From Thermodesulfobacteriota bacterium (GTDB lineage Bacteria > Desulfobacterota > WTBG01 > JAGOGO01), in contig CP113000.1 of assembly GCA_026625185.1 (NCBI GenBank), positions 150,001 through 182,000 on the forward strand: 32,000 nt of DNA, written 5' to 3'. Positions within the stretch are counted from its first letter, which is position 1. Each line of letters opens with the position of its first letter. Shown piece after piece: positions 14,141 through 28,531 of this stretch. The translations under genes were made by a program, and so were the position numbers. Below the pieces are notes generated by a model, which did not search any database, was not told the origin of the DNA, and saw only the letters and a list, made by a program, of their open reading frames with translations.

Positions 14141-15820
14141 TTATGTTTTTTGCATATTATCGTTAGAAAAATCAAGATGAATGAGAAGATCAGTGCGTCC
14201 CCGAAGTTCGGTGATACTCCGCATTCCAAAGCGCAGAAGAATTCCGATTAATTCTTTTCGCCAGGCATTATAAAGGTTGATAATTCGCTGGGTGGCCCAT
14301 TCTACGCTCATTTTAGCTGCCAATTCAATATCGGTAGTGGCAATGCCGCGGGGGCAGCCGCGACCGCTTTCGCAGCGACTGCAGCGCACGCATCCGAGCG
14401 CTACCAGCTCAGCCGTGCCGATTACGACGCCGTCAGCACCAAGAGCGATCGCTTTTGCTACGTCATGGGCAGTACGCACTCCACCACTGGCCATGAGGGT
14501 GACTTTTCCCCGCACCCCCTCTGATGTCAGGAAATCGTGTACTTTGGATATGGCATATTCAATCGGAATAGCAATGTTTTTCTTTGCAATATCGGGCGCG
14601 GCGCCTGTGCCTCCGTAGGCCCCGTCCAGGTGGATAATATGCGTTCCGGCTGCGCAACTTCCAATCGCAACCATATCGACATCCGTGGGCGTTGACACCT
14701 TGGTAGATACCAGAGCTCTCCGGTTAATGTGTTTAATCCAGTCAATGTGTTTCATGTGGTCTTCAATGGAATAAACACTGTGAAATGGAAAGGGGGAAAA
14801 AAGCGGGATCCCCACAACTGCCTCGCGCATGCGGGCTACTGCTTGCGTGTTTTTATCACCCAGCAAGTGTCCTCCAAGACCAGGCTTCGCTCCCTGTGCA
14901 TACTTGAATTCTACAATCCGCACCCGTTGAATCGTTTCTTCCCTGATCCCAAATAGCCCAGTAGCAACCTGAGTAATCATATAATCGTCGTAAGGCTTCA
15001 TGCGCTCCATATACCCACCTTCGCCTGTGCAGGAGAAGGTGTTCCATGCGGCAGCACCACGCACCTTTGCCAGTTGGGTTACATTGCTTACTGACCCGAA
15101 TGACATCCCCCCGCCATACCACGGAACATCGATCCTAATGCAAGGTCGGCGGTCGTTGCGGCGGTTAAGCTCGATCCCTATATCTATGTCATCTTCGTTC
15201 AGTGCCACATCAGGCTTATCTGGAAATTTAAATCGGAGACGATCAAATCCCCCCCCAGAATCACCGCACTGATAATCAAAACCATAGTCTTCCGAGGGAC
15301 TATCCCCCGTTGTCGCCATTTTCCAAGTAGCCAAAATCATGTCCGCAGTCCAGCGAAAATCTCCCAGTGCTCTCATCATGGGATTTTCAACCATCCGCAG
15401 TGCACCCTGAGGGCATAACGCTACACAATAATGATCGGTTTTCTCGCAGCCCGGACCTTTGCAGAAATGGCTTTGAGCACTAGCAAAATATTTGTAACCC
15501 GGCTTCAGCACATGAACATCATAAGGACAAACGTTTACACATTTCCCGCATCGGATACAATCATCATCGCTACGCCGGATAATGTATTTTGCAATTTCAT
15601 TACGATAGCGCGGCGGAGCCAGCTTGATTTCACGGCTTACTTTGACCTGCGGCACAAACGTTTTCCGTGTGTTTTCCGGTAGAACATCATCAAACTTATT
15701 TTTTTGTTCCGAAAATTTTTCCAAAGATTTGTTCCTCAAGTTCTTCAAAAAACATTGCCCGTCCCACATCTCCTCGAAGACGACGGGCTTCCCGCATTCC
15801 CATTGCGCCCATAACTTCAA
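14141..15820 (-). CDS. gltB: glutamate synthase FMN-binding (synthase) domain protein with an N-terminal 2x[4Fe-4S] ferredoxin domain (archaeal-type split GltB)
   Basis: CIRCGKCVNVCPYD / YCVALCPQGA ferredoxin motifs, followed by WYGGGMSFGS, CTGEGG, KYAQGAKPGLGGHL, SPFPFHSVYSIEDH, LDGAYGGTGAAP, ASGGVRTAHDVAKAIALGADGV and the cluster cysteines CVRCSRCESGRGC. The track start at 15820 is a TTG and overlaps the upstream gene. Alternative starts are ATG 15769, TTG 15724 (GAGGAA 7 nt upstream) and GTG 15655. Confidence 0.9.
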   Translation of the reverse strand: MKLWAQWECGKPVVFEEMWDGQCFLKNLRNKSLEKFSEQKNKFDDVLPENTRKTFVPQVKVSREIKLAPPRYRNEIAKYIIRRSDDDCIRCGKCVNVCPYDVHVLKPGYKYFASAQSHFCKGPGCEKTDHYCVALCPQGALRMVENPMMRALGDFRWTADMILATWKMATTGDSPSEDYGFDYQCGDSGGGFDRLRFKFPDKPDVALNEDDIDIGIELNRRNDRRPCIRIDVPWYGGGMSFGSVSNVTQLAKVRGAAAWNTFSCTGEGGYMERMKPYDDYMITQVATGLFGIREETIQRVRIVEFKYAQGAKPGLGGHLLGDKNTQAVARMREAVVGIPLFSPFPFHSVYSIEDHMKHIDWIKHINRRALVSTKVSTPTDVDMVAIGSCAAGTHIIHLDGAYGGTGAAPDIAKKNIAIPIEYAISKVHDFLTSEGVRGKVTLMASGGVRTAHDVAKAIALGADGVVIGTAELVALGCVRCSRCESGRGCPRGIATTDIELAAKMSVEWATQRIINLYNAWRKELIGILLRFGMRSITELRGRTDLLIHLDFSNDNMQKT

Positions 15821-17099: not shown

Positions 17100-17143
17100 A
17101 ATTTAGAATTGGTTATTTTCTAGTGATAATTTTTTTGTTCCTG

Positions 17144-18082
17144 TTACTTGGTTGCGACCATCAGCTCGGGCAGGACAGATTCCTTTCCGCCGGAAAGAAT
17201 ATGTATTCCCCGAAGGCCTTTCATTCCTCTAATTTTCTTGATTACTTCCCTGCAAATGGCAAGTCCTTCTTTTTTCTGGGCTTTCTCATCGCCGGCCGCT
17301 TTCAAGCGTTCGATTACCTGTTCTGGAATAGATAAATCAGTTAAAGTATCACGCAACTTCTCTGCTTCCCCAACGCTTTCTAAAGGTCGCACGCCTGCCA
17401 GAATAGCGACTTTCTCAGTAATGCCCTCCTCGCGGGCTGCTTCGAGCCACTGCTGAAAGCGCTCGGTATCAAATACTGCCTGAGTCTGGATAAATCGCGC
17501 ACCCCCCGCCACCTTTTTGGTAACTCGAAGAATATTGAGTTCCAGAGGAGCCAGGTAAGGATTTGCTACTGCCCCTATAAGCATTGAAAATCTTCCTTCA
17601 ATTCTGTTTCCATCAAGAAGGACTCCTTGTTCGTTCATTTTCTTTATCGCCGCAATGAGTTGAATCGAGTCAATGTCAAAAGAATTACCGGCTTCAAATG
17701 ATGTGGTCAGGGTTTGGTGGTATCCGGACAGGCAGAGAACGTTTCTGATTCCTAAATAGGCTGCCCCAAGAAGATCGGACTGGAGGGCAATGCGGTTTCG
17801 GTCGCGGGTAACAAGCTGGTAGATTGGTTCTATATTCTCCCGAATCAAAGCAACTGACCCTACAAGACTCGACAGGACCGGACCATGAGGATTGTCAGCC
17901 ACATTGACTGCTATCGGTCCATCTTTTAGGACACCGAACACCTTTTCAATTACCGTGAGCTCCGCAGTAGCGTGTGGCAGAAGCTCTGCGGTAACAATAA
18001 AAGCTCCCTTCTCTATCGCCTGTGCAAGTTTACTATCCTGTGTCATACGGTCATCTCCCTCCCCGACCAAAGCCGGAGACAA
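17144..18082 (-). CDS. metF: methylenetetrahydrofolate reductase (acetogen/sulfate-reducer MetF type)
   Basis: FIVTAELLPH..., VNVADNPHG, QLVTRDRNRIALQSDLLGAAYLGIRNVLCLSGYH, ARFIQTQAVFD. Adjacent to metV and mvhD. The start could also be the ATG at 18046 (MTQDSK...). Confidence 0.85.
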   Translation of the reverse strand: MSPALVGEGDDRMTQDSKLAQAIEKGAFIVTAELLPHATAELTVIEKVFGVLKDGPIAVNVADNPHGPVLSSLVGSVALIRENIEPIYQLVTRDRNRIALQSDLLGAAYLGIRNVLCLSGYHQTLTTSFEAGNSFDIDSIQLIAAIKKMNEQGVLLDGNRIEGRFSMLIGAVANPYLAPLELNILRVTKKVAGGARFIQTQAVFDTERFQQWLEAAREEGITEKVAILAGVRPLESVGEAEKLRDTLTDLSIPEQVIERLKAAGDEKAQKKEGLAICREVIKKIRGMKGLRGIHILSGGKESVLPELMVATK

Positions 18083-18100
18083 AAAAACTTTCGAAAGGTT

Positions 18101-18508
18101 TCATTGAGAATTTGAACAAGCCAAGCCGCTAATCTTAGCGCGAAAATTATCTACTTCACGAATAATCTGTTCTACGTCAACTTCTTCTTTTGGTTTAATA
18201 ACCTTTATTCTTCCTCTGCCCAGTCCGATCTCCTCAAGAAGTGAGTCTACTGCCTCCACTCTCCGCGCTGCCCGCAGATTTCCCTCAAGGTAACGACAAG
18301 CATCCTGTTTGCAGGTTATCACCATCACGCCATCTGCTCCGGTTTCAAACGCTTTAATCAAATAAAGCAGGTCCACCTTCCCGGAACAAGGCAAGCTGAT
18401 CGCTTTCAGCTCCTCACCTTCTCGTGCAGCACAGTAACGTCGTGCGGTATCAGTATCAAAACTATTAGAACAAAAAAATAAATATATTTTTAAAGGTCGA
18501 TTATCCAT
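18101..18508 (-). CDS. mvhD: MvhD/FlpD-like iron-sulfur protein (methyl-viologen-reducing hydrogenase delta-subunit family), copy 2
   Basis: KIYLFFCSNS...SLPCSGKVDLLYLIKAFETGADGVMVITCKQDACRYLEGNLRAARRV is the diagnostic MvhD pattern. Confidence 0.85.
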   Translation of the reverse strand: MDNRPLKIYLFFCSNSFDTDTARRYCAAREGEELKAISLPCSGKVDLLYLIKAFETGADGVMVITCKQDACRYLEGNLRAARRVEAVDSLLEEIGLGRGRIKVIKPKEEVDVEQIIREVDNFRAKISGLACSNSQ

Positions 18509-18513
18509 AACAC

Positions 18514-19182
18514 TTAGATCCTGTGGTCCTCCCGGACGATAACCCGAAGTCCGCCATGAATGCTCGCGTTCCAGTTTTTCGGTGGCTTAATTTGTTTAAG
18601 GCGGTCAAGCTGCCCAATGCCTTTGAGCCGCTGATAGATAAGTTGCCAGGCGCAGGGGCGGTCGGGCAAGACCTCACAACGGTCTTCCCGGGAACCACCG
18701 CAGGGGCCATTAAGCATATGCTTGGCGCACCGGGTAATCGGGCAGATACCGCCGTATTCGTGCAGCACACAGGCGCCGCAGGCAACGCATTTCTCCGTCC
18801 AGACCGCCCTTTCTTCAAGAATGCCCAGGAAAGCGGTGTTCAGTCCGGCATAAACCGGCTTTGCAGGATAACGTTCCGCAATGGCTTGAACGCCAGCACC
18901 GCACCCGAGAGAAAGCACCGCATCATTTCTCTCGATTGCTTCGGCAGCTTTCTCGATAAACACGTTGTCACACTGACGCTCGATGGTAAGCTCCTCAATC
19001 TGGAGAGAAAAGCCGGCTAATCGCGAAGCTATTCGTAGCGCCGAAGAAATAATGCTCACCTCACGTTCACCACCAGCAAGGCAAACCGTAACACAGGTGC
19101 CGCATCCCAGCACTAAAACTTTTTTTTGGCCTTTTAATATCTCGATAAGTTCAGGTATAGTTTTTCTTTCTGCAACGATCAT
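18514..19182 (-). CDS. metV: MetV (zinc/iron-sulfur partner subunit of MetF; carries the MTHFR C-terminal-domain family)
   Basis: The C-terminal half CVACGACVLHEYGGICPITRCAKHMLNGPCGGSREDRCEV...DRPCAW is the characteristic LNGPCGG MetV signature. The N-terminal half carries VLVLGCGTCVTVCLAGG. Confidence 0.75.
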   Translation of the reverse strand: MIVAERKTIPELIEILKGQKKVLVLGCGTCVTVCLAGGEREVSIISSALRIASRLAGFSLQIEELTIERQCDNVFIEKAAEAIERNDAVLSLGCGAGVQAIAERYPAKPVYAGLNTAFLGILEERAVWTEKCVACGACVLHEYGGICPITRCAKHMLNGPCGGSREDRCEVLPDRPCAWQLIYQRLKGIGQLDRLKQIKPPKNWNASIHGGLRVIVREDHRI

Positions 19183-19283: not shown

Positions 19284-19742
19284 TTATATCTGAACAAAAT
19301 CCTTCTGCTCTTTTTTGTTCCCACTCGTCGACTTTAAGGGATTAGGGCCAAGCTCGCGAACAGTTTTAATCATGTCAGTAATAATATCCGCCAAAGGGCG
19401 TCCCATGGCGGCAGAAATATTAACCATTCGCAAACGCTCCTTTTCAATTCCAATTTCTGCCAAAAGATCCCGGGTCTGATTGACCCGGCGTTTTGCCACC
19501 AGATTCCCTTCGATAAAATGGCATCCGCCCTCAAGACACCCCGCAACCAGCACGCCGTCCGCCCCGTTTTCAAACGCCCTTAAATAAAAATCAACCTCCA
19601 GTCTACCCGTACACGGCGTGCGAATAATGCGTATGTTTGGCGGATACTGAAGCCGCATCGAACCAGCCAGGTCCGCGGAAGCATAGGCACAGTAATGACA
19701 AAAAAAACCTACAATCAATGGTTCAAAGGCATGTGCATTCAT
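19284..19742 (-). CDS. mvhD: MvhD/FlpD-like iron-sulfur protein, copy 1
   Basis: IVGFFCHYCAY...RTPCTGRLEVDFYLRAFENGADGVLVAGCLEGGCHFIEGNLVAKRRV. The ATGA overlap (19739-19742) with the HdrA-like gene suggests translational coupling. Confidence 0.85.
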   Translation of the reverse strand: MNAHAFEPLIVGFFCHYCAYASADLAGSMRLQYPPNIRIIRTPCTGRLEVDFYLRAFENGADGVLVAGCLEGGCHFIEGNLVAKRRVNQTRDLLAEIGIEKERLRMVNISAAMGRPLADIITDMIKTVRELGPNPLKSTSGNKKEQKDFVQI

Positions 19743-22700
19743 GATGAATTTCCAGCTGCTAATAAGTTATCAAGCATCATACAAAACTGACCGGTCTCAA
19801 AATGGCTCAGCTGGATTGCACGAGCCGGACACTCGGCGGCACAAATACCACACCCCATGCATTTGGCTCCGATAATCTCCGCCTTTTGATCCCGGTTTAC
19901 CAGAGGCGCTCCATAAGGACATACTTTCAAACAGGTCATGCACGAGATACATTTATTCTGGTTGACATGCGATACCTGAGCGCCGACATCAAGATACGTC
20001 TTTGAAAGCACGGTGGCTGCCCGCGCAGCCGCAGCCCTGGCTTGAGAAATATTTTCGTCAACGAATTTTGGCGAGTGAGCAAGTCCGCACAGGAAAATAC
20101 CCTCACTGGCAAAATCAACCGGCCGTAGCTTCAAATGAGCTTCCACGTAAAAACCATCGGCATTAAGGGGAACCTTAAGCATGTCAGCAATAACCTTATT
20201 ATCTTCACCCGGTATAATACCGGTGCTGAGCACGACACGATCAGCTTCCATCTCAAGTGACTCTGGAAAGTCAGGACTGTCCACGGTGATAACCAGACCA
20301 TGGGCATCAGAAATTTTCGGAGGGGAATCCTGATGGTAGCGGATAAAGACAACCCCGGCTTCCCGTGCTTTTTTATAGTACGTTTCCCGAAACCCGTACG
20401 TCCTTACATCCCGGTAAAGAATAAATACCTGTGCATCCGGATCCTTCTCCTTGATACTAAGCGCATTCTTAACCGCCCTAGAACAGCAAAGTCGACTACA
20501 ATAGGGGCGTTCGGGATTGCGGGATCCCACGCATTGAATCATGACCACGTTCCCACCGCCCGTAGAAAACGTTTTTTCATGGAGCTGTTTTTCTAATTCA
20601 CCTTGGGTCAGCACCTGTTGAGATTTACCATATAGAAACTCTGAGGTTCCTGCCGGTTTGGCGCCCGTAGCTACTATCAGGGCACCGCAAGAAACCTCGA
20701 TCCTTTCCTCATTCCGGGAAAGGGTGACCAAGAAATTGCCGATATGTCCGGCAACACGGGCAAGCTCTGTTTCCCGGTAAACATTAATATTGGGATGATT
20801 TTCAACTCGCTGGATGAGCCCAGCGGTAAAAGCAGGGATGTCATCCTTTTCCAGGGTACTGTATAAGTTGAGAAGATTTCCCCCCAGACGATCAGCACAC
20901 TCAACAAGGTTGATTTTAAAGCCCTGGTCTGCTAATGAAAGGGCCGCCGTCATGCCGCTCATTCCTCCTCCAATAACCAAGCCGGTTTGATTAATTTCAA
21001 GCGATTCTCCTCCCAGCGGAGCCAGAGAATGTGCCCGGGCAATAGACATGCGCACCAGCTCAATTGCTTTTTTCGTGGCCTCCTTCGGGTTTAATGAGTG
21101 CACCCATGAGCACTGGTCCCGAATGTTGGCGAGCTCGAATAAATAGGGATTGAGACCTGCTTCGCGGAGTGTTTCCCGAAACAAGGGCTCGTGGGTTCGG
21201 GGGGTGCACGAAGCAACAACAATCCGGTTCAGCCGGTATTCACGAATTTTCTCCTTGATTTCTGACAGGCTGGTATCTGAACAGGTGAACATGCTATCTT
21301 TGGCAAAAACAACCCCCTCCTGAGATTTAATACTATCAACTACCTGAGTAACATCTACGACCGACGCAATGTTTATTCCGCAGTGGCACACAAACACCCC
21401 AATCCTCGGCTCTTCGTCGGTAATGTCGCGTTCGTTAGGGTAGGTTTTTTTGGTAACCAGAGTATTGCGGGAATCTGCCAGCAATTCCATGGCCATGGAT
21501 GCTGCACCACTTGCCTGGGTAACGGTTTCCGGAATATCTTTAGGCTCCTGGAACGCACCGGCAACAAAAACCCCAGGCCGGGATGTTGTCAGTGGAAGAA
21601 GGCGATTCGTCGCACAAAAGCCGAACCCGTTAAGCTCTATCCCCAAGCGGGATACCCTTTCCGTGACCGATGTTTTCGGCTCAATGCCCGTGGCCAGCAC
21701 CACCAGATCAAACTCTTGTTCCTCAAATTTCCGATTTTCATTTACAAATCGTACCCGAAGATTTCTGGTGTCCGGGACCTGCACAATCCGTGACGGCATA
21801 CTGCGGACAAAGTGGATACTCGTTTCACCGCGAGCGCGTTCATAATACTGGTCAAAATCTTTTCCATGGGCACGAATATCCATATAAAAAATGGTCGCTT
21901 CCAGACCTTCTAAATGTTCGCGGGCAACCAAAGCTTGTTTTATCGTCGCCATGCAGCAAACCGATGAACAGTAGTCGTTGCCGCAGTTGCTGTCTCGCGA
22001 ACCCACGCACTGAATAAAAGCAATACGTTTCGCTTCGCCACCGCCTGCCGGTCGCACAATATGCCCTTCAAAGGGGCCCGCAGCAGAAAGCATGCGCTCA
22101 AATTGCACATTGGTAATCACGTTATCATAACGGCCAAAGCCAAACTCTCCTTTTTTGGCAGCAGGAAACTCCTCGAAACCGGGAGTAAGGATAACCGCGC
22201 CCACTTCAAGTTCGATCATCTGCACTTCCCTGGCATGATTGATCGCGTTCTTCTCGCAGGCGGCCACACACTCCCGGCATTCGGAGCACAAAGCGCAGTT
22301 GAGACATCGCTCGGTTTCGGCCAGAGCATCTTCTTCGGAAAAGGCTTCTTCGACCTCAGCAAAGTTGTTGATTCTTTGTTCCAGCGGCAGTTCCGGAGTC
22401 TGGGCACGCGGTCTTTTTTCCACCTCTGCTAATGAGGGAAGAAGTTCCTCGGCAACCGGAGCGATCGTATTTTCAAAACGGGCAGTCCGCGGATCTTCCT
22501 TTCTCACGTACCGGTCAATCGATTCCGCCGCTCGCTTGCCGGCAGCAACCGCTTCAATGACCGTCGCGGGGCCGGTAACAATATCCCCACCGGCGAAAAC
22601 CCCGTCTTTCTCAGTGAGTCCGTATTGGTCAACGATGATGTTTCCCCGCTGGTTTACCGGTAAAAACGCCGCAGTGCCGAAAAAAGACGGATCGGAACGG

Positions 22701-24241
22701 CTTCCGATAGCCAAAATCACCATGGCGGTTTTAAAATCCTTGGTTTCGTTTTCATTATAGGTCGGATTAAATCGTTTTTGCTCATCGAAGACTGCCGTGC
22801 ATTTCTTTAGTTCAATACCGTTTACCATCCCTTCGGAACCTTTAATTCTTTTTGGTCCCCAGGAGGTGTGGACCGTAATCCCTTCTTCAAGCGCCTGCTT
22901 TTTCTCTTCTTCATTGGCGGGCATCTCTTCCCACGATTCCAGACAGGCCATCTGCACATCTTTGGCCCCAAGTCTCTTGGCGCTTAACGCCACGTCAATC
23001 GCCACGTTTCCGCCGCCGATGACAAACACCCTATCTTTGATGTCCGCTGTCCCCTCTTTGACGGCCCTGAGGAAATCGAGCCCCTGAACGACTCCGTTAA
23101 GATTCTCACCTTCCACATTCAGGATGCTGCCTTTCTGTAAGCCCATGCCGATAAAGACCGCAGCATGGTCTGCGCGCAGCTTATCAATGGTGATGTCTTT
23201 GCCCACCTGGCAGTTAAACACAAAGGTAACTCCTTTGCGTCGAATAAGCTCGATTTCATAATCCAGGACCTTCTCGGGAAGGCGGTATTCAGGAATCCCC
23301 CAACGAAGCATTCCGCCCGCAGCAGGGCGAGCTTCGTAAACAATCACAGCATACCCACGATCAGCAAGGTCCTGGGCTACCGTCAGGCCGGAAGGGCCGG
23401 CACCGACAACGGCAATTTTCCGGGCTTCCGGTGGAGGTGTTTTTTCCGCGGGAAGAGTGAGCTGCCCTGACTCCACCATTTCCATTTCCTTGTCTGAGGC
23501 GAAGCGTTTTAATTGCCGAATGGCAACCGGCGCATCAACCTGACCCCGGGTGCACGCGGTTTCGCAGGGATGAGTACAAACGCGTCCACAGATAGCAGAA
23601 AGGGGATTTCTTTCCCTGATCAGGTTTACAGCCTTGATATATTCTTTTTTCTTGATAAGTTGAATATAGCCCTGCACATTTATGTTTGCCGGACATGTCG
23701 TTTTACACGGAGAGTGCCCCAGCTTAAGAATGCTGGGAAGGTTGGGCACTGCCTGAACATACTGTTTGGCAATCGCTTTGCGAGTCCCTAAACCGCGATT
23801 GAACCGGTCAGAAATTTCAACCGGACAAACCGTGGTGCAGTCTCCGCAGGCATTACAGATTTTTTCATCCACATAACGGGGAGATTTTTTAACGGTAACC
23901 GTAAATCGGCCGGGGTCTCCCTCGATGCGGTCAAGTTCTGATAAAGTCAAAATTTCTATGTTCAGGTTTCGGGCACATTCAACCAGTTTAGGCGAAACTA
24001 TGCAGGTGGCGCAATCGCCCGTGGGAAAAGTCTTATCCAGTTGAGCCATCATTCCACCGATGGCAGCCGATCGCTCAATGAGGTAAACCTTGAAACCAGA
24101 GTTGGCCAGATCGAGCGCCGCCTGCACTCCGGCAATGCCGGCGCCTTGTACCAGGACTGCACCGATTTTATTATTGTTGTTATTGTTATTATTGTTGTTA
24201 TTCATCTTCAGTTTTTTTACCTTAATCGAGTCAAAAACCAT
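19739..24241 (-). CDS. hdrA: giant HdrA-family flavoprotein (1500 aa): two HdrA units in tandem, with a GltD/NfnB-type NAD(P)H oxidoreductase module inserted in the first unit (HdrL-like architecture)
   Basis: Unit 1: VLVQGAGIAGVQAALDLA...DKTFPTGDCATCI, then IQCVGSRDSNCGNDYCSSVCC. Insert (aa ~175-580, nt ~22500-23720): CPANINVQGYI...ICGRVCTHPCETACTRG, KIAVVGAGPSGLTVAQDLA, GGMLRWGIPEYRLP, VFVIGGGNVAIDVA, GVFAGGDIVTGPATVIEAVAAGKRAA. Unit 2: IGVFVCHCGINIA, GLVIGGGMSGMTAALSLA, IQCVGSRNPERPYCSRLCC, and C-terminal CISCMTCLKVCPYGAP / CMGCGICAAECPARAI. GAGGGGG RBS 7 nt upstream of the ATG at 24241. Confidence 0.9.
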   Translation of the reverse strand: MVFDSIKVKKLKMNNNNNNNNNNNKIGAVLVQGAGIAGVQAALDLANSGFKVYLIERSAAIGGMMAQLDKTFPTGDCATCIVSPKLVECARNLNIEILTLSELDRIEGDPGRFTVTVKKSPRYVDEKICNACGDCTTVCPVEISDRFNRGLGTRKAIAKQYVQAVPNLPSILKLGHSPCKTTCPANINVQGYIQLIKKKEYIKAVNLIRERNPLSAICGRVCTHPCETACTRGQVDAPVAIRQLKRFASDKEMEMVESGQLTLPAEKTPPPEARKIAVVGAGPSGLTVAQDLADRGYAVIVYEARPAAGGMLRWGIPEYRLPEKVLDYEIELIRRKGVTFVFNCQVGKDITIDKLRADHAAVFIGMGLQKGSILNVEGENLNGVVQGLDFLRAVKEGTADIKDRVFVIGGGNVAIDVALSAKRLGAKDVQMACLESWEEMPANEEEKKQALEEGITVHTSWGPKRIKGSEGMVNGIELKKCTAVFDEQKRFNPTYNENETKDFKTAMVILAIGSRSDPSFFGTAAFLPVNQRGNIIVDQYGLTEKDGVFAGGDIVTGPATVIEAVAAGKRAAESIDRYVRKEDPRTARFENTIAPVAEELLPSLAEVEKRPRAQTPELPLEQRINNFAEVEEAFSEEDALAETERCLNCALCSECRECVAACEKNAINHAREVQMIELEVGAVILTPGFEEFPAAKKGEFGFGRYDNVITNVQFERMLSAAGPFEGHIVRPAGGGEAKRIAFIQCVGSRDSNCGNDYCSSVCCMATIKQALVAREHLEGLEATIFYMDIRAHGKDFDQYYERARGETSIHFVRSMPSRIVQVPDTRNLRVRFVNENRKFEEQEFDLVVLATGIEPKTSVTERVSRLGIELNGFGFCATNRLLPLTTSRPGVFVAGAFQEPKDIPETVTQASGAASMAMELLADSRNTLVTKKTYPNERDITDEEPRIGVFVCHCGINIASVVDVTQVVDSIKSQEGVVFAKDSMFTCSDTSLSEIKEKIREYRLNRIVVASCTPRTHEPLFRETLREAGLNPYLFELANIRDQCSWVHSLNPKEATKKAIELVRMSIARAHSLAPLGGESLEINQTGLVIGGGMSGMTAALSLADQGFKINLVECADRLGGNLLNLYSTLEKDDIPAFTAGLIQRVENHPNINVYRETELARVAGHIGNFLVTLSRNEERIEVSCGALIVATGAKPAGTSEFLYGKSQQVLTQGELEKQLHEKTFSTGGGNVVMIQCVGSRNPERPYCSRLCCSRAVKNALSIKEKDPDAQVFILYRDVRTYGFRETYYKKAREAGVVFIRYHQDSPPKISDAHGLVITVDSPDFPESLEMEADRVVLSTGIIPGEDNKVIADMLKVPLNADGFYVEAHLKLRPVDFASEGIFLCGLAHSPKFVDENISQARAAAARAATVLSKTYLDVGAQVSHVNQNKCISCMTCLKVCPYGAPLVNRDQKAEIIGAKCMGCGICAAECPARAIQLSHFETGQFCMMLDNLLAAGNSS
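24170..24202 (-). repeat. imperfect trinucleotide repeat (AAT/AAC)x11 encoding an Asn11 tract in the N-terminal extension of the HdrA-like protein
   Basis: The plus strand reads att att gtt gtt att gtt att att gtt gtt att. The protein begins MVFDSIKVKKLKM-N11-KIGAVLVQGAG. Confidence 0.9.
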
Positions 24242-24257
24242 TTTAAAACCCCCTCAA

Positions 24258-24312
24258 TCCCCCTTTACAAAAGGAAGATGACAACAGGCTTCTCCCCTTT
24301 AGAAAAGGGAAG
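24258..24312 (-). repeat. two ~20-nt direct repeats, each able to form a small triloop hairpin, in the hdrB-hdrA intercistronic spacer
   Basis: Plus strand: TCCCCCTTTACAAAAGGAAG (24258-24277) and TCCCCTTTAGAAAAGGGAAG (24293-24312). Each contains CC(C)TTT-NNN-AAAGG(G), a 5-6 bp stem. Confidence 0.6.
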
Positions 24313-24391
24313 TCACAGGGGATTAGTTTAAATTTTTGCTCAATTTAGTCTTTTTTTGTTCTCATCCAGCTAGTCAATCAAGTTCCTCCGT

Positions 24392-25255
24392 TCACGTTAA
24401 GCGCTGAACAATCCTCTCGGGAGAGACCATGAGTTTTTCCAAACCAAGTTTATCGGCAGAAATGCCGAGGCAAAGCCCAAGTAATTGGGTAATATAGATA
24501 ATCGGCAGGTTGTGGTCTCTGCCGGTTTCTTTTTTAATGTCACTCTGTCGCAAGTCCAGATTTATCTGACACATAGGACAGGCCACCGCCACGCACTCTG
24601 CACCCGCAGCCCGGGCCATCGTCAAAACAGCATCAGAGAGCTTTACCACGACATCGCTCCGGGTGAGGGAAAGAGCTCCCCCGCAGCATTCAACCTTGTG
24701 GGGCCAGTCAAGACTTTCCCCTCCTATGGCAGTAACCAGACGATCCAGGGAAACGGGATTTTCCGGATTATCAAACCGATTTACTTCCGGTGGACGCACC
24801 AGCAGACAACCATAGTAACACGCCACCTTAAGCCCGTTAAGAGAGCGCTTGAGAGCTTTTTTGATTCTGTCAATCTCCACATCTTCAAGAAGCACTTCTA
24901 CGAAATGGCGCACCCGCACCGAGCCGTCATAATCATGACCAAGCGCTTCACCCACATGCTCACGAATTTTGGGGTGACGCAGAACTTCGTAGTTCGCCAT
25001 TTTCAGCATGCTGTAACAGGCAGCGCAGGTAACGACAACATCAAGCCCCATTTTCTGCGCCCGAGCCAGATTGGCTGCCGGCAATGAGGCCGACAGCACC
25101 CGGTCAGTCTGGTGAGCCGGGGTGGTGCCGCAACAGGTCCACCCTTCGATCTCGGTCAAATCAATCCCCAGGGCGCGGGCGACGGCTGAACATGATGCAT
25201 GCTGTTCCCGCGCGGTGGAATCAGATGCGCATCCGGGATAATATGCGTATTTCAT
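24392..25255 (-). CDS. hdrB: heterodisulfide reductase subunit B-like protein (two CCG domains)
   Basis: MKYAYYPGCA..., EIEGWTCCGTTPAH, ACYYGC, KVECCGGALS, VACPMCQINLD. Confidence 0.9.
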   Translation of the reverse strand: MKYAYYPGCASDSTAREQHASCSAVARALGIDLTEIEGWTCCGTTPAHQTDRVLSASLPAANLARAQKMGLDVVVTCAACYSMLKMANYEVLRHPKIREHVGEALGHDYDGSVRVRHFVEVLLEDVEIDRIKKALKRSLNGLKVACYYGCLLVRPPEVNRFDNPENPVSLDRLVTAIGGESLDWPHKVECCGGALSLTRSDVVVKLSDAVLTMARAAGAECVAVACPMCQINLDLRQSDIKKETGRDHNLPIIYITQLLGLCLGISADKLGLEKLMVSPERIVQRLT

Positions 25256-25830
25256 TTTTGCTTTTCCTTCGCTCGCCTCACTGAATCAAAAATGCGTTTT
25301 ACCATTTTCCGGTCAGCCCCCCGGGGAGGCAAAAGCGCAATTTTTCTCTTTCTGAGCATACCCGGGAATTTCTCCGCGTCTTTCATATAAGTTTTCGTGC
25401 CGATCTTATGAGCAACGATCATGCCCAGGTCATAGGTGCGTCCAAACATTTCTACAGTTTTAAGAAAGACCCGGTTAAAAAGCGGCATGTTGCCTTCCGG
25501 GGCTGGTGTTTTCTGCTCCACGGCTAAGCCCCGCAAGGCGTCAATTACCGAGGGAATATCGATTCCCATGGGGCACCGGACAAAACAGGTTTCACAGGAT
25601 ACACACATCCACACCAGATCGCTGGCAAGCAACTCATTTCCTGCGCACAAGTGTAACCGGCGCAGGATCTCCGAAGGTGGAGCCCCGGTAAGGTTGGACA
25701 CGGGACAACCACTGTCACACTTCTTACATTGGAAGCAAACGCTCAAATCAACGTCCGCCAATTTTTCCACCGTGCGAAGGAGCCCTGGAGATGTTTTGTC
25801 TTTCTTAATCCTGATGGTCATGATGTTCAT
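25252..25830 (-). CDS. hdrC: heterodisulfide reductase subunit C-like protein (2x[4Fe-4S])
   Basis: CFQCKKCDSGCPVSN and CVSCETCFVRCPMGID. The track ORF extends to 25971, but that part lies inside the upstream gene. I place the start at ATG 25830 (4 nt after the upstream TAG), or at ATG 25821, which has AGGGAAA 9 nt upstream. A 4-nt overlap with hdrB is at 25252-25255. Confidence 0.85.
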   Translation of the reverse strand: MNIMTIRIKKDKTSPGLLRTVEKLADVDLSVCFQCKKCDSGCPVSNLTGAPPSEILRRLHLCAGNELLASDLVWMCVSCETCFVRCPMGIDIPSVIDALRGLAVEQKTPAPEGNMPLFNRVFLKTVEMFGRTYDLGMIVAHKIGTKTYMKDAEKFPGMLRKRKIALLPPRGADRKMVKRIFDSVRRAKEKQK

Positions 25831-25834
25831 TTCC

Positions 25835-28531
25835 CTAATCGCTAATAGTCTCCGGTTCTGTCGGACCTTCTTCATCCCAGTAGACTTCGGTTGTTTCAGA
25901 AGCTGATTGATCACCCGTGCTGGGGACGACTTTGCGATAAACTTGTTCCGGTGATCGGCGCGCCCCATCAACCGTCAAGAGCTCATCCACTTTGATGCCA
26001 AAGAGACGCTCATTTTCAACCAGGTAAGGAAGAATTAAATTCCAGTCCTTCCTGGTGAGCGGGAGAAACACCCCTCCGTTTAATTGCTCATCCACAAGTA
26101 TTTTATTGGGATCACGAATAAAAGCCGCCCCCCCTGATGATAACGAAAAGAGATTGCTCCCCGGATAGGGTTCCGCCAAAGAAATAATCTGTCCCTCGTC
26201 ATCAAAGGTTACGGCATTTAGTATAACAAATCCCCCGCCATTATGAGGGTCACCAGCCATAAAGGACTCGCCCAGAAAATCAAGACAGGTTTGATTAATA
26301 ACGACCCGTGGTCTCCCCACTGAATTAATAAGGGGCCGACCGGCTGCGTTCCCCAGTACATAAACCTCGCCTCCTTTGGCACCATACATAAAAGTCTGAC
26401 CGACATCGCCGTGCACAACAAGTTTACCGGCCTTTATAATCTGCCCAAGCTGGTCCTGAGCGTTACCGTGCACCGTGACCGTCAACCCATCGATGCCTGA
26501 GCCCAGATAATCTCCTGAGCTGCCGTAAACGTCTATAACCACATTGTCGGTTTCCGGCCCCAGACCACAGCCGATAAATCGCTGGCCGGAACAGCCGAAA
26601 GAAATAAAATGCCGCCACCCTTTCTTCATATAGGCATCCAAAAGAAGCGACGCGTCAGATTCATTTCCTTCAGGAGGAAATTTTTTTGCGTTTATTACCA
26701 ATGTCTTCTCATCGCGGCGCGGCGCCCGTAACTTTTTACGGGTCTCAAAGTCGATGAGTCGATAAAGCTTCGGCTCACCATCCTGGTCATCCAGGCCGGG
26801 GAGGCTGCTGAAGAACCGGTCTAAGGCGCTACGCACCATGTGGAGAAGGTGATTGCGTTTTTTTTCACCCGTCTGGTATTTGCGGTCATTAAGAAGGGTA
26901 AGCCCCTGAATCGCGGTGGCCGTGTAGTTTGAATCTTTTGCCAGACCAATAATGATTTCACACGCTGTCCAGATATCGTCAAAAGACCAGGCGGGAATTT
27001 TGTCGCAGACATACTCAAAGAGAGCGAGCGGGTTTCCGGTTTCCAGGCGCATCCGCAGCTCTCTTTCCAGCTCGCTGTCTTTCGGGGCCGTAAAAATCCG
27101 TTCCCGGGTAAAATCGCACGATTCAGTTTTCTTCGGCATGGGAACCGGTTTCCCGAATTTGTCAGTACAGGTCATGCGCATCTTCCCGGCGGCGTCGGGA
27201 GAAACGTTAAAGATAAACGCTCCGCCGTCGGTGTGGCTTCCGCCCCGTGCGTTCCAGTACCGGTCAGCCACCGGACAAATCCGCTTATCTTGCCTGGAGA
27301 GACTGATAAGGGTCGCGTCAATCGCCTGCTTTTCAGAACAGATCAGCCCTACCTGGACCTCACCGTCGGAAAAAGAGAACACCTGGGGCCGTAACATCGC
27401 GGTGTCGGTAATGCCCAGAAGTTGAAAGGTTTTTTGTTCCGGAATAGTGCGGGTGATGATGAAGAACCAGGGCCCGTCCGGGGAGCCATGGATATGGCTC
27501 GCCTGTATTGATCGGTAGATCGCCTGCTTATCCCGGGGAAGACGGTCAAAGTCAAGTTCGGTTGTGGGCGCGATCGCCTCGATTATGTATTCCAGAGGAT
27601 AATGATACGTCCTGCTCAAGAGGTCGAATAAAAGCGCAGAAACCTCGGTGTCGGTGAGAAACTGCGGATAAATATGCCGTTGTTTAAGATACTCAGTAAC
27701 CGAGTGATAATTTGCAAAATCACCATTATGAACCAGTGCCATATTGATGCCGGCAAAAGGATGGGCACCACCCGGATGCCATACCCGTCCCTTGGTCGGG
27801 AAACGCTGGTGTGCGATCCATGCGTGGGCTGCAAGGTCCTCAATCTGGTAATATTTTACTATTGCCTCTGCAAAACCAACCACCTTGAGAATCATGATAT
27901 CCCGGCCGTGAGACAGGACAAAAGCCTTTTGATCCCCCAGGGAAGCATAGTATTCCTGATTAATTCGGAAACTGTTTTGGTTTATAAATTCGTCTTCCGC
28001 TTCGCGACGGGTGATTGCGGTGAGCTGATTTTGAGCAATAAAGGCGTCCAGTACGCTTCTTTTTACCCGCACAAAGTAGCGCCACACATCAGGTGGCTTT
28101 ACTTCCAGTCCTTCCACTGAATGCCAATCATCAACTGACTTAAGTTCGCTGGAAGCGGCAACATCAAACTGCGGAGTGATAAAACGTTTTTCCAGCTTTT
28201 CCCGACCACCCGGCTTGATAAAAGCCACGTGGAGCATATAATACTCATCCAGTATTTCCCGGCTCACCCCCAGCTGCTCAGGAACAAACCCGACCGCTGC
28301 AATGCCTCCGCCTTTTCCGTTACCCCGGTTGTGCATCAGGCAGGAAGGCTCATAAATATGGCGGCCCGGAACCGGTTCGGTACAACAAAAACCAACAACG
28401 CCGCATCCGCCTTCTTCCTCGCTTTTTTTTACAACCTGACGAAGATTAAACTCATTAATGAGTAGTTTTTTTGAATCCAAAAGTTGTCGTATTCTTTCAC
28501 TCTTCATTTTATTCAAAACAATTTCATTCAC
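25835..28531 (-). CDS. gltB: glutamate synthase large-subunit-like fusion: class-II (Ntn) glutamine amidotransferase domain + C-terminal GXGXG domain, with no FMN domain
   Basis: 898 aa. GG-C43-GVVGF...HNRGNGKGGGIAAVGF and QRFPTKGRVWHPGGAHPFAG...ALVHNGDFANY form the GATase-II part, with a 42-aa propeptide before the nucleophile Cys. CSGQRFIGCGLGPE...VYGSSGDYLGSGIDGLTVTVHGNAQDQLGQIIKAGKLVVHGDVGQTFMYGAKGGEVYVLGNAAGRPLIN is the GXGXG beta-helix domain. The track start at 28531 is a GTG; the ATG at 28507 is an alternative. Confidence 0.9.
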   Translation of the reverse strand: MNEIVLNKMKSERIRQLLDSKKLLINEFNLRQVVKKSEEEGGCGVVGFCCTEPVPGRHIYEPSCLMHNRGNGKGGGIAAVGFVPEQLGVSREILDEYYMLHVAFIKPGGREKLEKRFITPQFDVAASSELKSVDDWHSVEGLEVKPPDVWRYFVRVKRSVLDAFIAQNQLTAITRREAEDEFINQNSFRINQEYYASLGDQKAFVLSHGRDIMILKVVGFAEAIVKYYQIEDLAAHAWIAHQRFPTKGRVWHPGGAHPFAGINMALVHNGDFANYHSVTEYLKQRHIYPQFLTDTEVSALLFDLLSRTYHYPLEYIIEAIAPTTELDFDRLPRDKQAIYRSIQASHIHGSPDGPWFFIITRTIPEQKTFQLLGITDTAMLRPQVFSFSDGEVQVGLICSEKQAIDATLISLSRQDKRICPVADRYWNARGGSHTDGGAFIFNVSPDAAGKMRMTCTDKFGKPVPMPKKTESCDFTRERIFTAPKDSELERELRMRLETGNPLALFEYVCDKIPAWSFDDIWTACEIIIGLAKDSNYTATAIQGLTLLNDRKYQTGEKKRNHLLHMVRSALDRFFSSLPGLDDQDGEPKLYRLIDFETRKKLRAPRRDEKTLVINAKKFPPEGNESDASLLLDAYMKKGWRHFISFGCSGQRFIGCGLGPETDNVVIDVYGSSGDYLGSGIDGLTVTVHGNAQDQLGQIIKAGKLVVHGDVGQTFMYGAKGGEVYVLGNAAGRPLINSVGRPRVVINQTCLDFLGESFMAGDPHNGGGFVILNAVTFDDEGQIISLAEPYPGSNLFSLSSGGAAFIRDPNKILVDEQLNGGVFLPLTRKDWNLILPYLVENERLFGIKVDELLTVDGARRSPEQVYRKVVPSTGDQSASETTEVYWDEEGPTEPETISD

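What the first reader, a model, noticed from the sequence alone, without database searches (positions are those of the whole stretch)
14141..28531. Split glutamate synthase genes bracket a complete HdrCBA-MvhD-MetVF module in one co-directional 14.4 kb gene string
Seen: eleven minus-strand CDSs, with no opposite-strand gene and no recognisable terminator between them. Order and spacing: [GATase-II+GXGXG, 898 aa] -4 nt- hdrC -(4-nt overlap)- hdrB -150 nt- tandem HdrA with embedded GltD-like module -(4-nt overlap)- mvhD -101 nt- metV -5 nt- mvhD -18 nt- metF -44 nt- FMN-domain paralogue -(abutting or overlapping)- ferredoxin+FMN synthase domain. The catalytic pieces of glutamate synthase therefore sit at the two ends, and the middle is the MetFV-HdrABC-MvhD gene set. 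No free-standing gltD exists here; the only GltD/NfnB-type NAD(P)H module is inside the HdrA-like protein. Immediately downstream are sigma-54-driven GATase and glnA genes. Established: a MetFV-HdrABC-MvhD methylene-THF reductase complex has been described for Moorella thermoacetica, and its second redox partner has remained unclear. Large HdrA-like (HdrL) proteins next to metF are known from Desulfobacteraceae genomes, and split GltB domain proteins are known from archaea. Inference: GOGAT may be wired to an Hdr-type flavin-based electron-bifurcating core, coupling glutamine/2-oxoglutarate amination to the methylene-/methyl-THF couple. Alternatively, GOGAT may be the missing partner reaction of such a complex. 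I cannot tell from memory whether this exact linkage has been described.
Basis: partly seen in the sequence, partly recalled or inferred. Interest (0 to 1): 0.85.

Follow-up and report, generated by a model that had tools for sequence, protein, structure and literature searches.

The report
Glutamate synthase wired to Hdr/MetFV core
Ten co-directional genes join a split, non-canonical glutamate synthase to a heterodisulfide-reductase/MetFV electron-transfer set, and the same ten genes travel together in anaerobes of at least nine phyla, which points to an undescribed and possibly energy-conserving way of powering nitrogen assimilation.

Summary

- **Conservation.** 80 genome loci with a homologue of the 898-aa protein were compared. 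Of the 45 with enough flank, 44 also carry MetF, MetV and MvhD, and 38 carry HdrC, HdrB and HdrL. The usual order is MvhD2-MetF-FMNp-FMN-G13-HdrC-HdrB-HdrL-MvhD1-MetV. The window is a circular permutation of that order, so the "bracketing" is lineage-specific while the linkage is deep.
- **Fusions.** Rare megaproteins fuse a GlcD-like dehydrogenase, Fe-S, FMNp, FMN and G13 in one chain. The GOGAT-like trio is therefore one enzyme with exchangeable electron-input modules.
- **GOGAT signatures.** The glutaminase and 2-oxoglutarate residues are intact, and the G13 model matches GltS alpha subunits best.
- **MetF.** It has lost the catalytic Asp120 (Tyr here; Y/F/H in 38 of 41 Hdr-linked clusters). 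Asp is kept in clusters without Hdr and in 93 of 96 other MetFs.

Best reading (about 0.5): an NADH-fed, Hdr-type, possibly bifurcating glutamate synthase, with MetFV kept as an electron relay. Direct coupling to methyl-THF is more plausible for the reduced clusters. No description was found in the searchable literature. All function is inferred.

The parts
25835..28531 (-). G13: 898-aa fusion of an Ntn (class II) glutaminase domain, a helical linker (about residues 480-640) and a GXGXG beta-helix domain. It corresponds to GltB domains 1 and 4 in one chain.
   Evidence: Pfam GATase_6 and GXGXG. Invariant 'EEGGC43GVVGF' follows a roughly 42-aa propeptide, and R243, N269-G270 and D294 align with GlmS R73, N98-G99 and D123. 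The AF2 model (pLDDT 74) matches GltS alpha subunits 7MFM, 6S6S, 1EA0 and 1OFD best.
25252..25830 (-). hdrC, 2x[4Fe-4S]. The ATG lies 4 nt after the G13 stop; NCBI's call uses the ATG at 25821.
   Evidence: Fer4_8 and Fer4_17, TIGR03290. Sequence at the junction. Cys 30/33/36/40 and 74/77/80/84.
24392..25255 (-). hdrB with both CCG (non-cubane cluster) motifs intact. It overlaps hdrC by 4 nt.
   Evidence: PF02754 in two stretches, TIGR03288. C9..C41C42..C77xxC80 and C150..C190C191..C226xxC229.
19739..24241 (-). hdrL: tandem HdrA (two thioredoxin-reductase-like FAD units). A complete GltD/NfnB-like NAD(P)H module is inserted in the first unit (residues 163-579, nt 22505-23755). The C-terminus is a 2x[4Fe-4S] ferredoxin domain.
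   Evidence: NCBIfam HdrA2/HdrA in four stretches, Pfam Fer4_20 and Pyr_redox_2. 30% identity to E. coli GltD residues 39-470, E 6e-54. The NADPH-site 'AYRRDEE' reads 'ACLESWE' here. Motif map.
19284..19742 (-). mvhD1 ([2Fe-2S] connector). It overlaps hdrL by 4 nt.
   Evidence: PF02662 at 1e-48. It follows HdrL in all Hdr-containing loci.
18514..19182 (-). metV. This is the most conserved protein of the set (mean 79% identity across phyla).
   Evidence: PF12225 at 7e-37. Identities.
18101..18508 (-). mvhD2, a second and more divergent MvhD. It travels with metF and FMNp.
   Evidence: PF02662 at 9e-25. Gene orders.
17144..18082 (-). metF-like flavoprotein. It keeps the E. coli Glu28 and Gln183 equivalents but has Tyr (residue 121, nt 17720-17722) in place of catalytic Asp120.
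   Evidence: PF02219 at 3e-27. Alignments with E. coli MetF and with 96 other MetFs.
15696..17099 (-). FMNp: a full-length but degenerate paralogue of the synthase subunit. It keeps the N-terminal 2x[4Fe-4S] domain, the C-terminal 4-Cys motif and 'MAGGG'. It lacks the QGAKPG and GGTGA motifs.
   Evidence: 27% identity to the 559-aa protein over the whole length. Sequence. Present in every cluster variant. Fused to FMN and G13 in the megaproteins.
14141..15820 (-). FMN: archaeal-type glutamate synthase (synthase/FMN) subunit with an N-terminal 2x[4Fe-4S] domain. The true start is probably 15724-15769.
   Evidence: PF01645 at 1e-87. The alignment to A. brasilense GltB keeps the Q-G-A-K-P-G ... 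R-x-R 2-oxoglutarate motif. The cluster motif is CxxCxxCx5CP. Start candidates.
13727..13742 (-). Sigma-54-type -24/-12 element in front of the class-I GATase gene (12980-13666). It marks a separate downstream transcription unit.
   Evidence: TGGCATATAATTTGCT, one mismatch. Pfam GATase.
10842..12326 (-). glnA (type I glutamine synthetase, 10842-12182) with its own sigma-54-type element at 12311-12326.
   Evidence: TIGR00653 at 538 bits, above cut-off. TGGCATATGATTTGCT.
28896..29966 (+). Divergently transcribed HTH_3 regulator. It is syntenic with the cluster in related Desulfobacterota loci.
   Evidence: Pfam HTH_3. Homologues lie next to the cluster in L002, L024, L006, L073 and L040.

Best explanation
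The ten genes encode one conserved redox enzyme system.

Catalytic core (shown at sequence level). The core is a non-canonical, split glutamate synthase.
- G13 hydrolyses glutamine.
- The FMN subunit reductively aminates 2-oxoglutarate.
- FMNp is a degenerate paralogue that serves as Fe-S scaffold and partner.

Electron supply (inferred). This enzyme has no GltD subunit. I infer that electrons come from an Hdr-type module.
- NADH enters at the GltD-like insertion of the tandem-HdrA protein HdrL. NADH is more likely than NADPH because the Arg-Arg 2'-phosphate motif is replaced by Leu-Glu.
- HdrC/HdrB, the two MvhD proteins and MetV/MetF then relay electrons to the Fe-S domains of FMNp and FMN.
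- NADH-driven glutamate synthesis is strongly exergonic (roughly -45 to -50 kJ/mol from textbook potentials).
- The HdrA flavins could therefore bifurcate. One electron path would run downhill to the synthase site. The other would run uphill to ferredoxin, through the C-terminal ferredoxin domain of HdrL. Nitrogen assimilation would then conserve energy.

MetF (inferred). In this window's clade MetF has lost Asp120. It most likely acts as an FMN/Fe-S relay rather than as a folate reductase. In the reduced clusters without Hdr, MetF is intact and may feed methyl-THF electrons to the same core.
For: - Domains and residues.
- The G13 model matches GltS alpha subunits best, at E 1e-11 to 1e-8.
- Co-inheritance: 80 loci carrying at least nine phylum-level labels. 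28 loci show the full dominant order and 7 show the window's permuted order. 44 of 45 well-flanked loci carry MetF, MetV and MvhD, and 38 of 45 carry HdrC, HdrB and HdrL.
- All ten proteins keep narrow identity ranges across phyla (G13 64-72%, MetV 74-85%).
- In L083 the ten genes form a discrete unit between unrelated genes such as a cellulase and ALAD.
- Rosetta-stone megaproteins (2.2-3.2 kaa) fuse a GlcD-like FAD dehydrogenase, Fe-S, FMNp, FMN and G13.
- MetF Asp120 is Y/F/H in 38 of 41 Hdr-linked clusters. It is D in 14 of 15 Hdr-less clusters and in 93 of 96 other MetFs.
- Nitrogen context: glnA and a GATase with sigma-54 elements lie downstream, and glnA neighbours the cluster in several other loci.
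- A canonical gltB-gltD pair sits beside the cluster in L006, so this is a second isoenzyme.
Against: - There are no expression, interaction or activity data. Everything about the complex and the electron path is inferred from gene linkage and sequence.
- HdrB keeps both CCG motifs. It may therefore reduce an unknown disulfide rather than relay electrons.
- MetF remains well conserved (55-67%) and keeps Glu28. It may still bind a folate or another substrate.
- Three deep-branching Hdr-linked clusters keep Asp120.
- No sigma-54 site or riboswitch links the cluster itself to nitrogen control.
- I could not obtain the MetF sequence of the biochemically studied Moorella enzyme.
- The NADH-versus-NADPH call rests on a motif rule.
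Confidence: 0.5

Rival explanations
1. Dual-output complex. One Hdr/MvhD core serves two active terminal reductases, glutamate synthase and a MetFV methylene-THF reductase. Both use NADH, possibly with ferredoxin.
For: All six gene families of the Moorella-type Met complex are present. MetF keeps Glu28 and, in the window, Gln183. It is under clear purifying selection. MetV is the most conserved subunit.
Against: Asp120 is replaced by Tyr, Phe or His in 38 of 41 such clusters, although 93 of 96 other MetFs keep it. By my knowledge of E. coli MetF, Asp120 is needed for folate binding and catalysis. Gln183 varies (Q/H/S) within the clade. Many host lineages are fermenters not known to run a Wood-Ljungdahl pathway (own knowledge), and no such genes flank the cluster.
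Confidence: 0.2
2. Methyl-THF oxidised at MetF is the electron donor for glutamate synthesis, or GOGAT is the pulling reaction for methyl-THF oxidation.
For: Reduced clusters (MvhD-MetV-MetF-FMNp-FMN-G13) have no NAD(P)H module and keep Asp120. The megaproteins pair the same core with a GlcD-like dehydrogenase, whose substrates have a similar potential of about -190 mV. The reaction is thermodynamically downhill (textbook potentials).
Against: In the window's clade the folate catalytic Asp is lost and an NADH module is present. Anabolic glutamate flux cannot absorb a catabolic methyl flux. Ferredoxin entering at the Fer4 domains is an equally simple donor for the reduced clusters.
Confidence: 0.1
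3. The GltB-like trio is not a glutamate synthase. It is a related amidotransferase/reductive aminase that uses another amide donor or 2-oxo acid, for example like N-methylglutamate synthase.
For: The N-terminal domain misses the GltB-specific Pfam model GATase_2 and hits only GATase_6 weakly. Motif differences exist (PGLGGH against PGEGGQ; a 4-Cys cluster). The system coexists with canonical gltBD in L006. An extra paralogue, FMNp, is present.
Against: The glutamine-binding Arg/Asn-Gly/Asp and the 2-oxoglutarate Lys/Arg are conserved. GltS alpha subunits are the best structural matches. glnA next door is a true type I GS, not a gamma-glutamylmethylamide synthetase. No N-methylglutamate dehydrogenase genes are present.
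Confidence: 0.1
4. Two independent enzymes (a ferredoxin-type GOGAT and a MetFV-Hdr reductase) merely share an operon.
For: Operons can group unrelated anabolic functions. There is no direct interaction evidence.
Against: The linkage survives three different gene orders and transfer across at least nine phylum-level groups. MetVF and MvhD stay attached to the trio even when Hdr is absent. The fusion proteins show the trio works with an attached donor module. No other reductant-input subunit for the GOGAT-like core is encoded nearby.
Confidence: 0.05

Closest known systems
MetFV-HdrABC-MvhD methylene-THF reductase of Moorella thermoacetica (Mock et al. 2014, as summarised in PMC6085437)
   Same: Same six gene families (metF, metV, mvhD, hdrA, hdrB, hdrC). 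The HdrA flavin is a candidate bifurcation site. The second redox partner is unknown.
   Different: HdrA is a 1500-aa tandem with an inserted GltD-like module. There is a second MvhD. MetF lacks Asp120. The genes are not in a Wood-Ljungdahl gene context. They are always co-inherited with three GOGAT-like genes.
Glutamate synthase: bacterial NADPH-GltS (GltB/GltD; 1EA0, 6S6S, 7MFM), Fd-GltS (1OFD) and archaeal-type split GltB domain proteins
   Same: Ntn glutaminase with an N-terminal Cys after a propeptide. FMN/synthase domain with the 2-oxoglutarate Lys/Arg. GXGXG beta-helix. N-terminal 2x[4Fe-4S] domain on the synthase subunit, as in archaeal-type enzymes (own knowledge).
   Different: Domains 1 and 4 are fused with a novel helical linker. 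A degenerate synthase paralogue (FMNp) replaces the central domain. The cluster motif has four Cys instead of the three of the 3Fe-4S site. There is no free GltD. The GltB-specific Pfam model GATase_2 is not matched.
HdrL of Desulfobacterium autotrophicum (PMC2702500) and type II/III HdrA of methane-metabolising archaea (PMC12054007)
   Same: A large HdrA fused to a glutamate-synthase-small-subunit-like NAD(P)H domain and followed by mvhD. A tandem thioredoxin-reductase-like unit (type II) combined with a GltD insertion (type III).
   Different: Here both features occur in one protein. It sits in a fixed ten-gene set with GOGAT-like and MetVF genes, a context not reported in those papers.
NfnAB / GltD-family NAD(P)H:Fe-S modules
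   Same: The inserted module has the Fer4_20 domain plus FAD and NAD(P)H Rossmann folds of GltD/NfnB.
   Different: It is embedded in HdrA. The Arg-Arg NADPH motif is replaced by Leu-Glu.
N-methylglutamate synthase (MgsABC) of methylotrophs (own knowledge)
   Same: It is built from three GltB-domain homologues.
   Different: It has no Fer4 domains, no domain-1/4 fusion and no FMNp. Its partners GmaS and MgdABCD are absent here, and the neighbouring glnA is a true GS I.

Membership tests
Glutamate synthase (GOGAT/GltS) | PurF-type Ntn glutaminase domain with a catalytic N-terminal Cys and glutamine-binding Arg, Asn-Gly and Asp | tested here: met
   C43 is invariant after a propeptide. R243, N269-G270 and D294 align with GlmS R73, N98-G99 and D123. 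The 'CG..G...HNRG' signature parallels E. coli GltB.
Glutamate synthase (GOGAT/GltS) | Match to the GltB-specific amidotransferase model (Pfam GATase_2, PF00310) | tested here: not met
   Only GATase_6 is hit, at 28.8 bits (cut-off 27). Canonical GltB in L006 hits GATase_2 at 4.5e-171.
Glutamate synthase (GOGAT/GltS) | FMN/synthase domain (PF01645) with the 2-oxoglutarate-binding Lys and Arg | tested here: met
   PF01645 at 1.3e-87. The QGAKPG and R-x-R motifs are conserved against A. brasilense GltB.
Glutamate synthase (GOGAT/GltS) | C-terminal GXGXG beta-helix and an overall GltS-alpha-like fold | tested here: met
   PF01493 at 1e-13. Foldseek top hits are 7MFM, 6S6S, 2VDC, 1EA0 and 1OFD at probability 1.0.
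Glutamate synthase (GOGAT/GltS) | Dedicated reductant-input subunit (GltD) or a ferredoxin site | tested here: inconclusive
   There is no free gltD. A GltD-like module exists only inside HdrL. Fer4 domains on FMN and FMNp could accept ferredoxin.
Glutamate synthase (GOGAT/GltS) | Glutamine- and 2-oxoglutarate-dependent glutamate formation | not testable with these tools
   An enzyme assay is needed.
MetFV-HdrABC-MvhD methylene-THF reductase | Genes for MetF, MetV, MvhD, HdrA, HdrB and HdrC together | tested here: met
   HdrA is present as HdrL.
MetFV-HdrABC-MvhD methylene-THF reductase | MetF with the folate-catalytic residues (E. coli Glu28, Asp120, Gln183) | tested here: not met
   Glu28 and Gln183 are present in the window, but Asp120 is Tyr. 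It is Y/F/H in 38 of 41 Hdr-linked clusters, against D in 93 of 96 other MetFs.
MetFV-HdrABC-MvhD methylene-THF reductase | Association with Wood-Ljungdahl (acs/fhs/folD) genes | tested here: not met
   There are none in the 32-kb window or in the flanks of L083. The rest of the genome was not searched.
HdrL / type II+III HdrA | HdrA core with an inserted GltD-like NAD(P)H domain and/or a second thioredoxin-reductase-like unit, followed by mvhD | tested here: met
   Definitions are from PMC2702500 and PMC12054007.
HdrABC heterodisulfide reductase | HdrB with two CX31-39CCX35-36CXXC motifs | tested here: met
   The substrate is unknown.
N-methylglutamate synthase (MgsABC) | Co-occurrence with gamma-glutamylmethylamide synthetase and N-methylglutamate dehydrogenase | tested here: not met
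   glnA scores above the type I GS cut-off. No Mgd-like genes are present.

The most novel reading that the evidence does not exclude
The ten proteins form one supercomplex that is the first electron-bifurcating glutamate synthase. NADH is oxidised at the GltD-like insert of HdrL. The strongly exergonic reductive amination of 2-oxoglutarate pulls the simultaneous reduction of ferredoxin. Nitrogen assimilation would then yield low-potential reductant in anaerobes of at least nine phyla. MetF has been exapted from a folate reductase into an electron-relay flavoprotein. The same GOGAT core plugs into other donor modules: intact MetVF (methyl-THF) in reduced clusters, and a GlcD-like 2-hydroxyacid dehydrogenase in megaproteins.
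Probability: 0.3. Interest if true: 0.9.

Novelty: new variant of a known kind. Interest (0 to 1): 0.8.

Why it matters
- **Two open questions meet in one testable object.** One is what donates electrons to split, archaeal-type glutamate synthases. The other is what Hdr/MetFV-type complexes outside methanogens really reduce.
- **Abundance.** The gene set is common in anoxic peat, sediment and groundwater metagenomes. The two marker proteins each have more than 7,600 non-redundant relatives. The set is shared by Verrucomicrobiota, Planctomycetota, Chloroflexota, Bacteroidota, Desulfobacterota and others. A new mode of ammonium assimilation here would therefore matter for nitrogen and energy budgets of anaerobic communities.
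- **Annotation.** Many genes annotated 'methylenetetrahydrofolate reductase' and 'heterodisulfide reductase' in metagenome-assembled genomes may not report C1 or sulfur metabolism at all.

Tried and rejected
- **Selenocysteine in HdrL.** tblastn hits started at residue 44, which suggested a recoded stop. The cause was low-complexity masking of a poly-Asn/Gly-rich N-terminus. There is no in-frame stop.
- **Riboswitch or leader RNA.** No Rfam hit at gathering score in the window or in five related loci.
- **Sigma-54 promoter in front of the cluster.** None in the window, and only 3 of 65 loci have a weak match.
- **First AF2 model of G13.** With a 12-sequence alignment it was too poor to use (pLDDT 54). 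A 75-sequence alignment gave pLDDT 74.
- **N-methylglutamate pathway reading.** Rejected because glnA is a true GS I and no Mgd genes are present.
- **The Cys49-Cys50 pair next to the catalytic Cys of G13 as the HdrB disulfide substrate.** Either Cys can be Ala or Ile in relatives, so the idea was not pursued.
- **The hairpin in the hdrB-hdrL gap as a repeat element.** It occurs once in the window.
- **Literature.** Ten full-text searches found no description of GOGAT-like genes linked to MetFV or Hdr. Mock 2014, Bertsch 2015 and Pereira 2011 are not held. Subscription literature therefore remains unchecked.
- **Moorella MetF sequence.** It could not be obtained. A Desulfotomaculum MetV-MetF pair and 95 other MetFs served as proxies.
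Full report
**Source.** The window is identical to contig JARDUJ010000013 of assembly GCA_029216095.1. Its closest relatives among species-representative genomes are Thermodesulfobacteriota / "delta proteobacterium" metagenome-assembled genomes at 90-92% protein identity.

**Observation.**
- I count ten genes, not eleven. I call them G13 (898 aa, class II glutaminase plus GXGXG), hdrC, hdrB, hdrL (1500 aa), mvhD1, metV, mvhD2, metF, FMNp (467 aa) and FMN (559 aa).
- The quoted gaps and overlaps are right.
- The FMNp/FMN junction is a genuine overlap of uncertain length. There is no in-frame start just after the FMNp stop. Candidate starts lie at 15820, 15769 and 15724. Gene callers in another genome give a 35-nt overlap.
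- The consensus scan puts no terminator in the intergenic gaps. However, the 150-nt hdrB-hdrL gap folds into a long hairpin followed by GUUUU. This hairpin is absent from a 90% relative, where the gap is about 52 nt.
- A stem followed by U8 at about 13881-13889 may end the unit.
- Downstream, a class-I GATase gene and glnA each have a near-consensus sigma-54 element. glnA is a true type I glutamine synthetase.

**Is the linkage real?**
- An alignment of G13 homologues was used to scan one genome per species. At least 558 relatives were found and the best 80 loci were kept.
- I mapped all twelve window proteins onto these loci by tblastn.
- 28 loci show the complete order MvhD2-MetF-FMNp-FMN-G13-HdrC-HdrB-HdrL-MvhD1-MetV. 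Many more show truncated versions of it.
- Seven Desulfobacterota loci show the window's order, G13-HdrC-HdrB-HdrL-MvhD1-MetV-MvhD2-MetF-FMNp(-FMN). This is a circular permutation of the same ten genes.
- Two reduced orders exist without Hdr: MvhD-MetV-MetF-FMNp-FMN-G13 and MvhD-FMNp-FMN-G13-MetV-MetF.
- Among 45 loci with at least 6 kb upstream and 7.5 kb downstream, 44 carry MetF, MetV and MvhD, and 38 carry HdrC, HdrB and HdrL. The single exception has only FMNp-FMN-G13.
- The record titles name Verrucomicrobiota, Planctomycetota (Sedimentisphaerales, Phycisphaerae, Pirellulales), Chloroflexota, Bacteroidota, Ignavibacteriae, Leptospiraceae, Latescibacterota, Poribacteria and many Desulfobacterota lineages.
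- Identity to the window is flat across these phyla: G13 64-72%, MetV 74-85%, MetF 55-67%. This fits transfer of the whole set as a unit.
- In L083 the ten genes sit as a discrete block between a cellulase gene and unrelated genes.

**The GOGAT-like trio.**
- *G13, sequence.* It has an invariant Cys43 in "EEGGCGVVGF" after a roughly 42-residue leader, as in GltB propeptides. It also has the Arg, Asn-Gly and Asp that bind glutamine in GlmS (E. coli GltB N-terminus).
- *G13, model.* A model from a 75-sequence alignment (pLDDT 74, pTM 0.75) finds glutamate synthase alpha subunits as its five best PDB matches, ahead of GlmS, PurF and AsnB. Residues of about 480-640 form a confident helical domain with no Pfam match.
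- *FMN.* It aligns with the synthase domain of A. brasilense GltB and keeps the QGAKPG...RxR 2-oxoglutarate motif. The cluster site reads CxxCxxCx5CP, with four Cys.
- *FMNp.* It is a full-length 27% paralogue of FMN. It keeps both Fe-S regions and "MAGGG" but has lost the substrate and GGTGA motifs. I read it as a non-catalytic Fe-S partner. It would be analogous to the degenerate central domain of GltB (own knowledge of the GltS structure).
- *Fusions.* An exhaustive profile-free search found only 288 family representatives at E <= 1e-30. Among them are rare bacterial megaproteins of 2.2-3.2 kaa (Ca. Brocadiia and others). These carry, in one chain, a GlcD-like FAD_binding_4/FAD-oxidase_C dehydrogenase, Fer4, FMNp, FMN and G13. 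One of them has the permuted order. These fusions show that the trio is one enzyme and that it is fed by an attached dehydrogenase module.
- *A second isoenzyme.* In L006 a canonical gltB (1518 aa, all four Pfam domains) and gltD lie divergently next to the cluster. The system is therefore a second, distinct isoenzyme and not simply "the" GOGAT.

**The redox genes.**
- HdrL is a tandem HdrA. Residues 163-579 of the first unit align with almost the whole of E. coli GltD (E 6e-54). The NADPH-site "AYRRDEE" is "ACLESWE" here. By the usual Rossmann-fold rule this suggests NADH. That is an inference.
- This architecture combines the "type II" (tandem) and "type III" (GltD-inserted) HdrA classes described in 2025. 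For type III, NADH was proposed as the mid-potential substrate (PMC12054007). It also matches the HdrL of D. autotrophicum (PMC2702500).
- HdrB keeps both CCG motifs and HdrC keeps two 4-Cys motifs.
- Variants exist with a tandem HdrA that lacks the GltD insert and lacks HdrBC (L053, L075, L077).

**MetF.**
- Aligned with E. coli MetF, Glu28 is kept in 55 of 56 cluster MetFs.
- Asp120 is Tyr in the window. It is Y, F or H in 38 of 41 MetFs from Hdr-linked clusters. It is Asp in 14 of 15 Hdr-less clusters.
- It is also Asp in 93 of 96 other MetF homologues. These include a free-standing MetV-MetF pair of Desulfotomaculum copahuensis.
- Gln183 varies (Q/H/S) in the cluster clade.
- In E. coli, Asp120 has a major role in folate binding and catalysis (own knowledge). 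Its replacement by residues as different as Phe and His argues that folate chemistry is no longer the selected function in this clade.
- Three deep-branching Hdr-linked clusters still have Asp. This suggests an order of events: first a MetVF-GOGAT unit, then recruitment of Hdr, then loss of the Asp.

**Mechanism proposed.**
- *Shown:* domain content, conserved residues, co-inheritance, fusions.
- *Inferred:* NADH enters at the GltD-like insert. The HdrA flavins, HdrCB, the two MvhD proteins and MetV/MetF carry electrons to the Fe-S domains of FMNp and FMN, and then to the FMN that reduces 2-iminoglutarate formed with ammonia from G13.
- Textbook potentials are NAD -0.32 V, 2-oxoglutarate+NH4/glutamate about -0.14 V, plus glutamine hydrolysis. 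They leave roughly 45-50 kJ/mol. That is enough for an HdrA-type bifurcation that also reduces ferredoxin.
- Whether bifurcation occurs, what HdrB does and whether MetF still binds a folate are all open.
- For reduced clusters, methyl-THF (-0.2 V) or ferredoxin are the plausible donors. The GlcD-like fusions, whose likely substrates have a similar potential, make the "moderate-potential donor to GOGAT sink" logic attractive.

**Known or new?** Ten full-text searches and several papers read found HdrL, type III HdrA, the Moorella Met complex (second acceptor "yet to be identified", PMC6085437) and F420-linked GOGAT variants (PMC9012536). None described GOGAT-like genes joined to MetFV or Hdr. 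Key subscription papers are not held, so prior description cannot be excluded.

**Verdict.**
The wiring to an Hdr core is supported. The THF coupling in this window is doubtful.
- I classify it as a new variant of known kinds (GOGAT and Hdr-type complexes).
- It is widespread and experimentally tractable.

Noticed in passing
P0146, P0168, P0186, P0219, P0263, P0272 (not in the window): Bacterial megaproteins of 2.2-3.2 kaa fuse a GlcD-like FAD-linked 2-hydroxyacid dehydrogenase, Fe-S domains, FMNp, FMN and G13 in one chain. They may be a hydroxyacid-driven glutamate synthase, possibly using D-2-hydroxyglutarate. One of them has the permuted domain order.
   Followed up: partly
window 24242-24391 (-): The hdrB-hdrL gap holds a roughly 78-nt imperfect hairpin (-39 kcal/mol, not significant against shuffles) followed by GUUUU. 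It is absent from the 90%-identical relative L002 and occurs once in the window. It could be an attenuator, a processing site or an inserted element.
   Followed up: partly
window 24170-24205 (-), HdrL residues 14-24: A run of eleven Asn codons lies at the N-terminus of HdrL, just before the FAD-binding GxGxxG. It is also present in L002 and absent in other phyla.
   Followed up: no
window 15696-15820 (-): The FMNp and FMN reading frames overlap by up to 125 nt, and the overlap recurs in other phyla. No in-frame start follows the FMNp stop. Translational coupling, or a frameshift fusion of the two paralogues, is conceivable.
   Followed up: partly
window 28896-29966 (+): A divergent 356-aa regulator has a C-terminal HTH_3 and an N-terminal domain with only a weak KaiC/ATPase hit. 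It is syntenic in L002 and L024 (two tandem copies). 31-35% homologues lie next to the cluster in L006, L073 and L040.
   Followed up: partly
window 12980-13666 (-): A 228-aa class-I glutamine amidotransferase of unknown role has its own sigma-54 element. Homologues recur beside the cluster in Syntrophorhabdus-type loci (L043-L048, L078) and in L069.
   Followed up: partly
L006 1270-9602: A canonical gltB-gltD pair, a GAF-ANTAR antiterminator-type regulator and an HTH_3-cupin regulator lie divergently next to the G13 cluster. Together they form a nitrogen-assimilation island.
   Followed up: partly
window 2568-10755 (+): The bacterial alpha-2-macroglobulin gene is split into three ORFs (1249, 168 and 380 aa) with no recognisable thioester domain. 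The adjacent pbpC is split into two overlapping ORFs. These are frameshifts, pseudogenes or assembly errors.
   Followed up: no
window 30220-30732 (-): Only the C-terminal part of a DNA polymerase IV (DinB) gene is present as an ORF (170 aa, matching profile positions of about 220-420).
   Followed up: no
window 28532-28895: The 364-nt region upstream of G13 is very AT-rich (GC about 0.38 over 28001-30000, against about 0.50 in the cluster). It has several sigma-70-like hexamer pairs and no sigma-54 element.
   Followed up: no
window 28382-28405 (-), G13 residues 43-50: A Cys-Cys pair (C49-C50) sits six residues after the catalytic Cys43. At least one of the two is always kept, but either can be replaced in relatives. 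Its role is unknown.
   Followed up: partly
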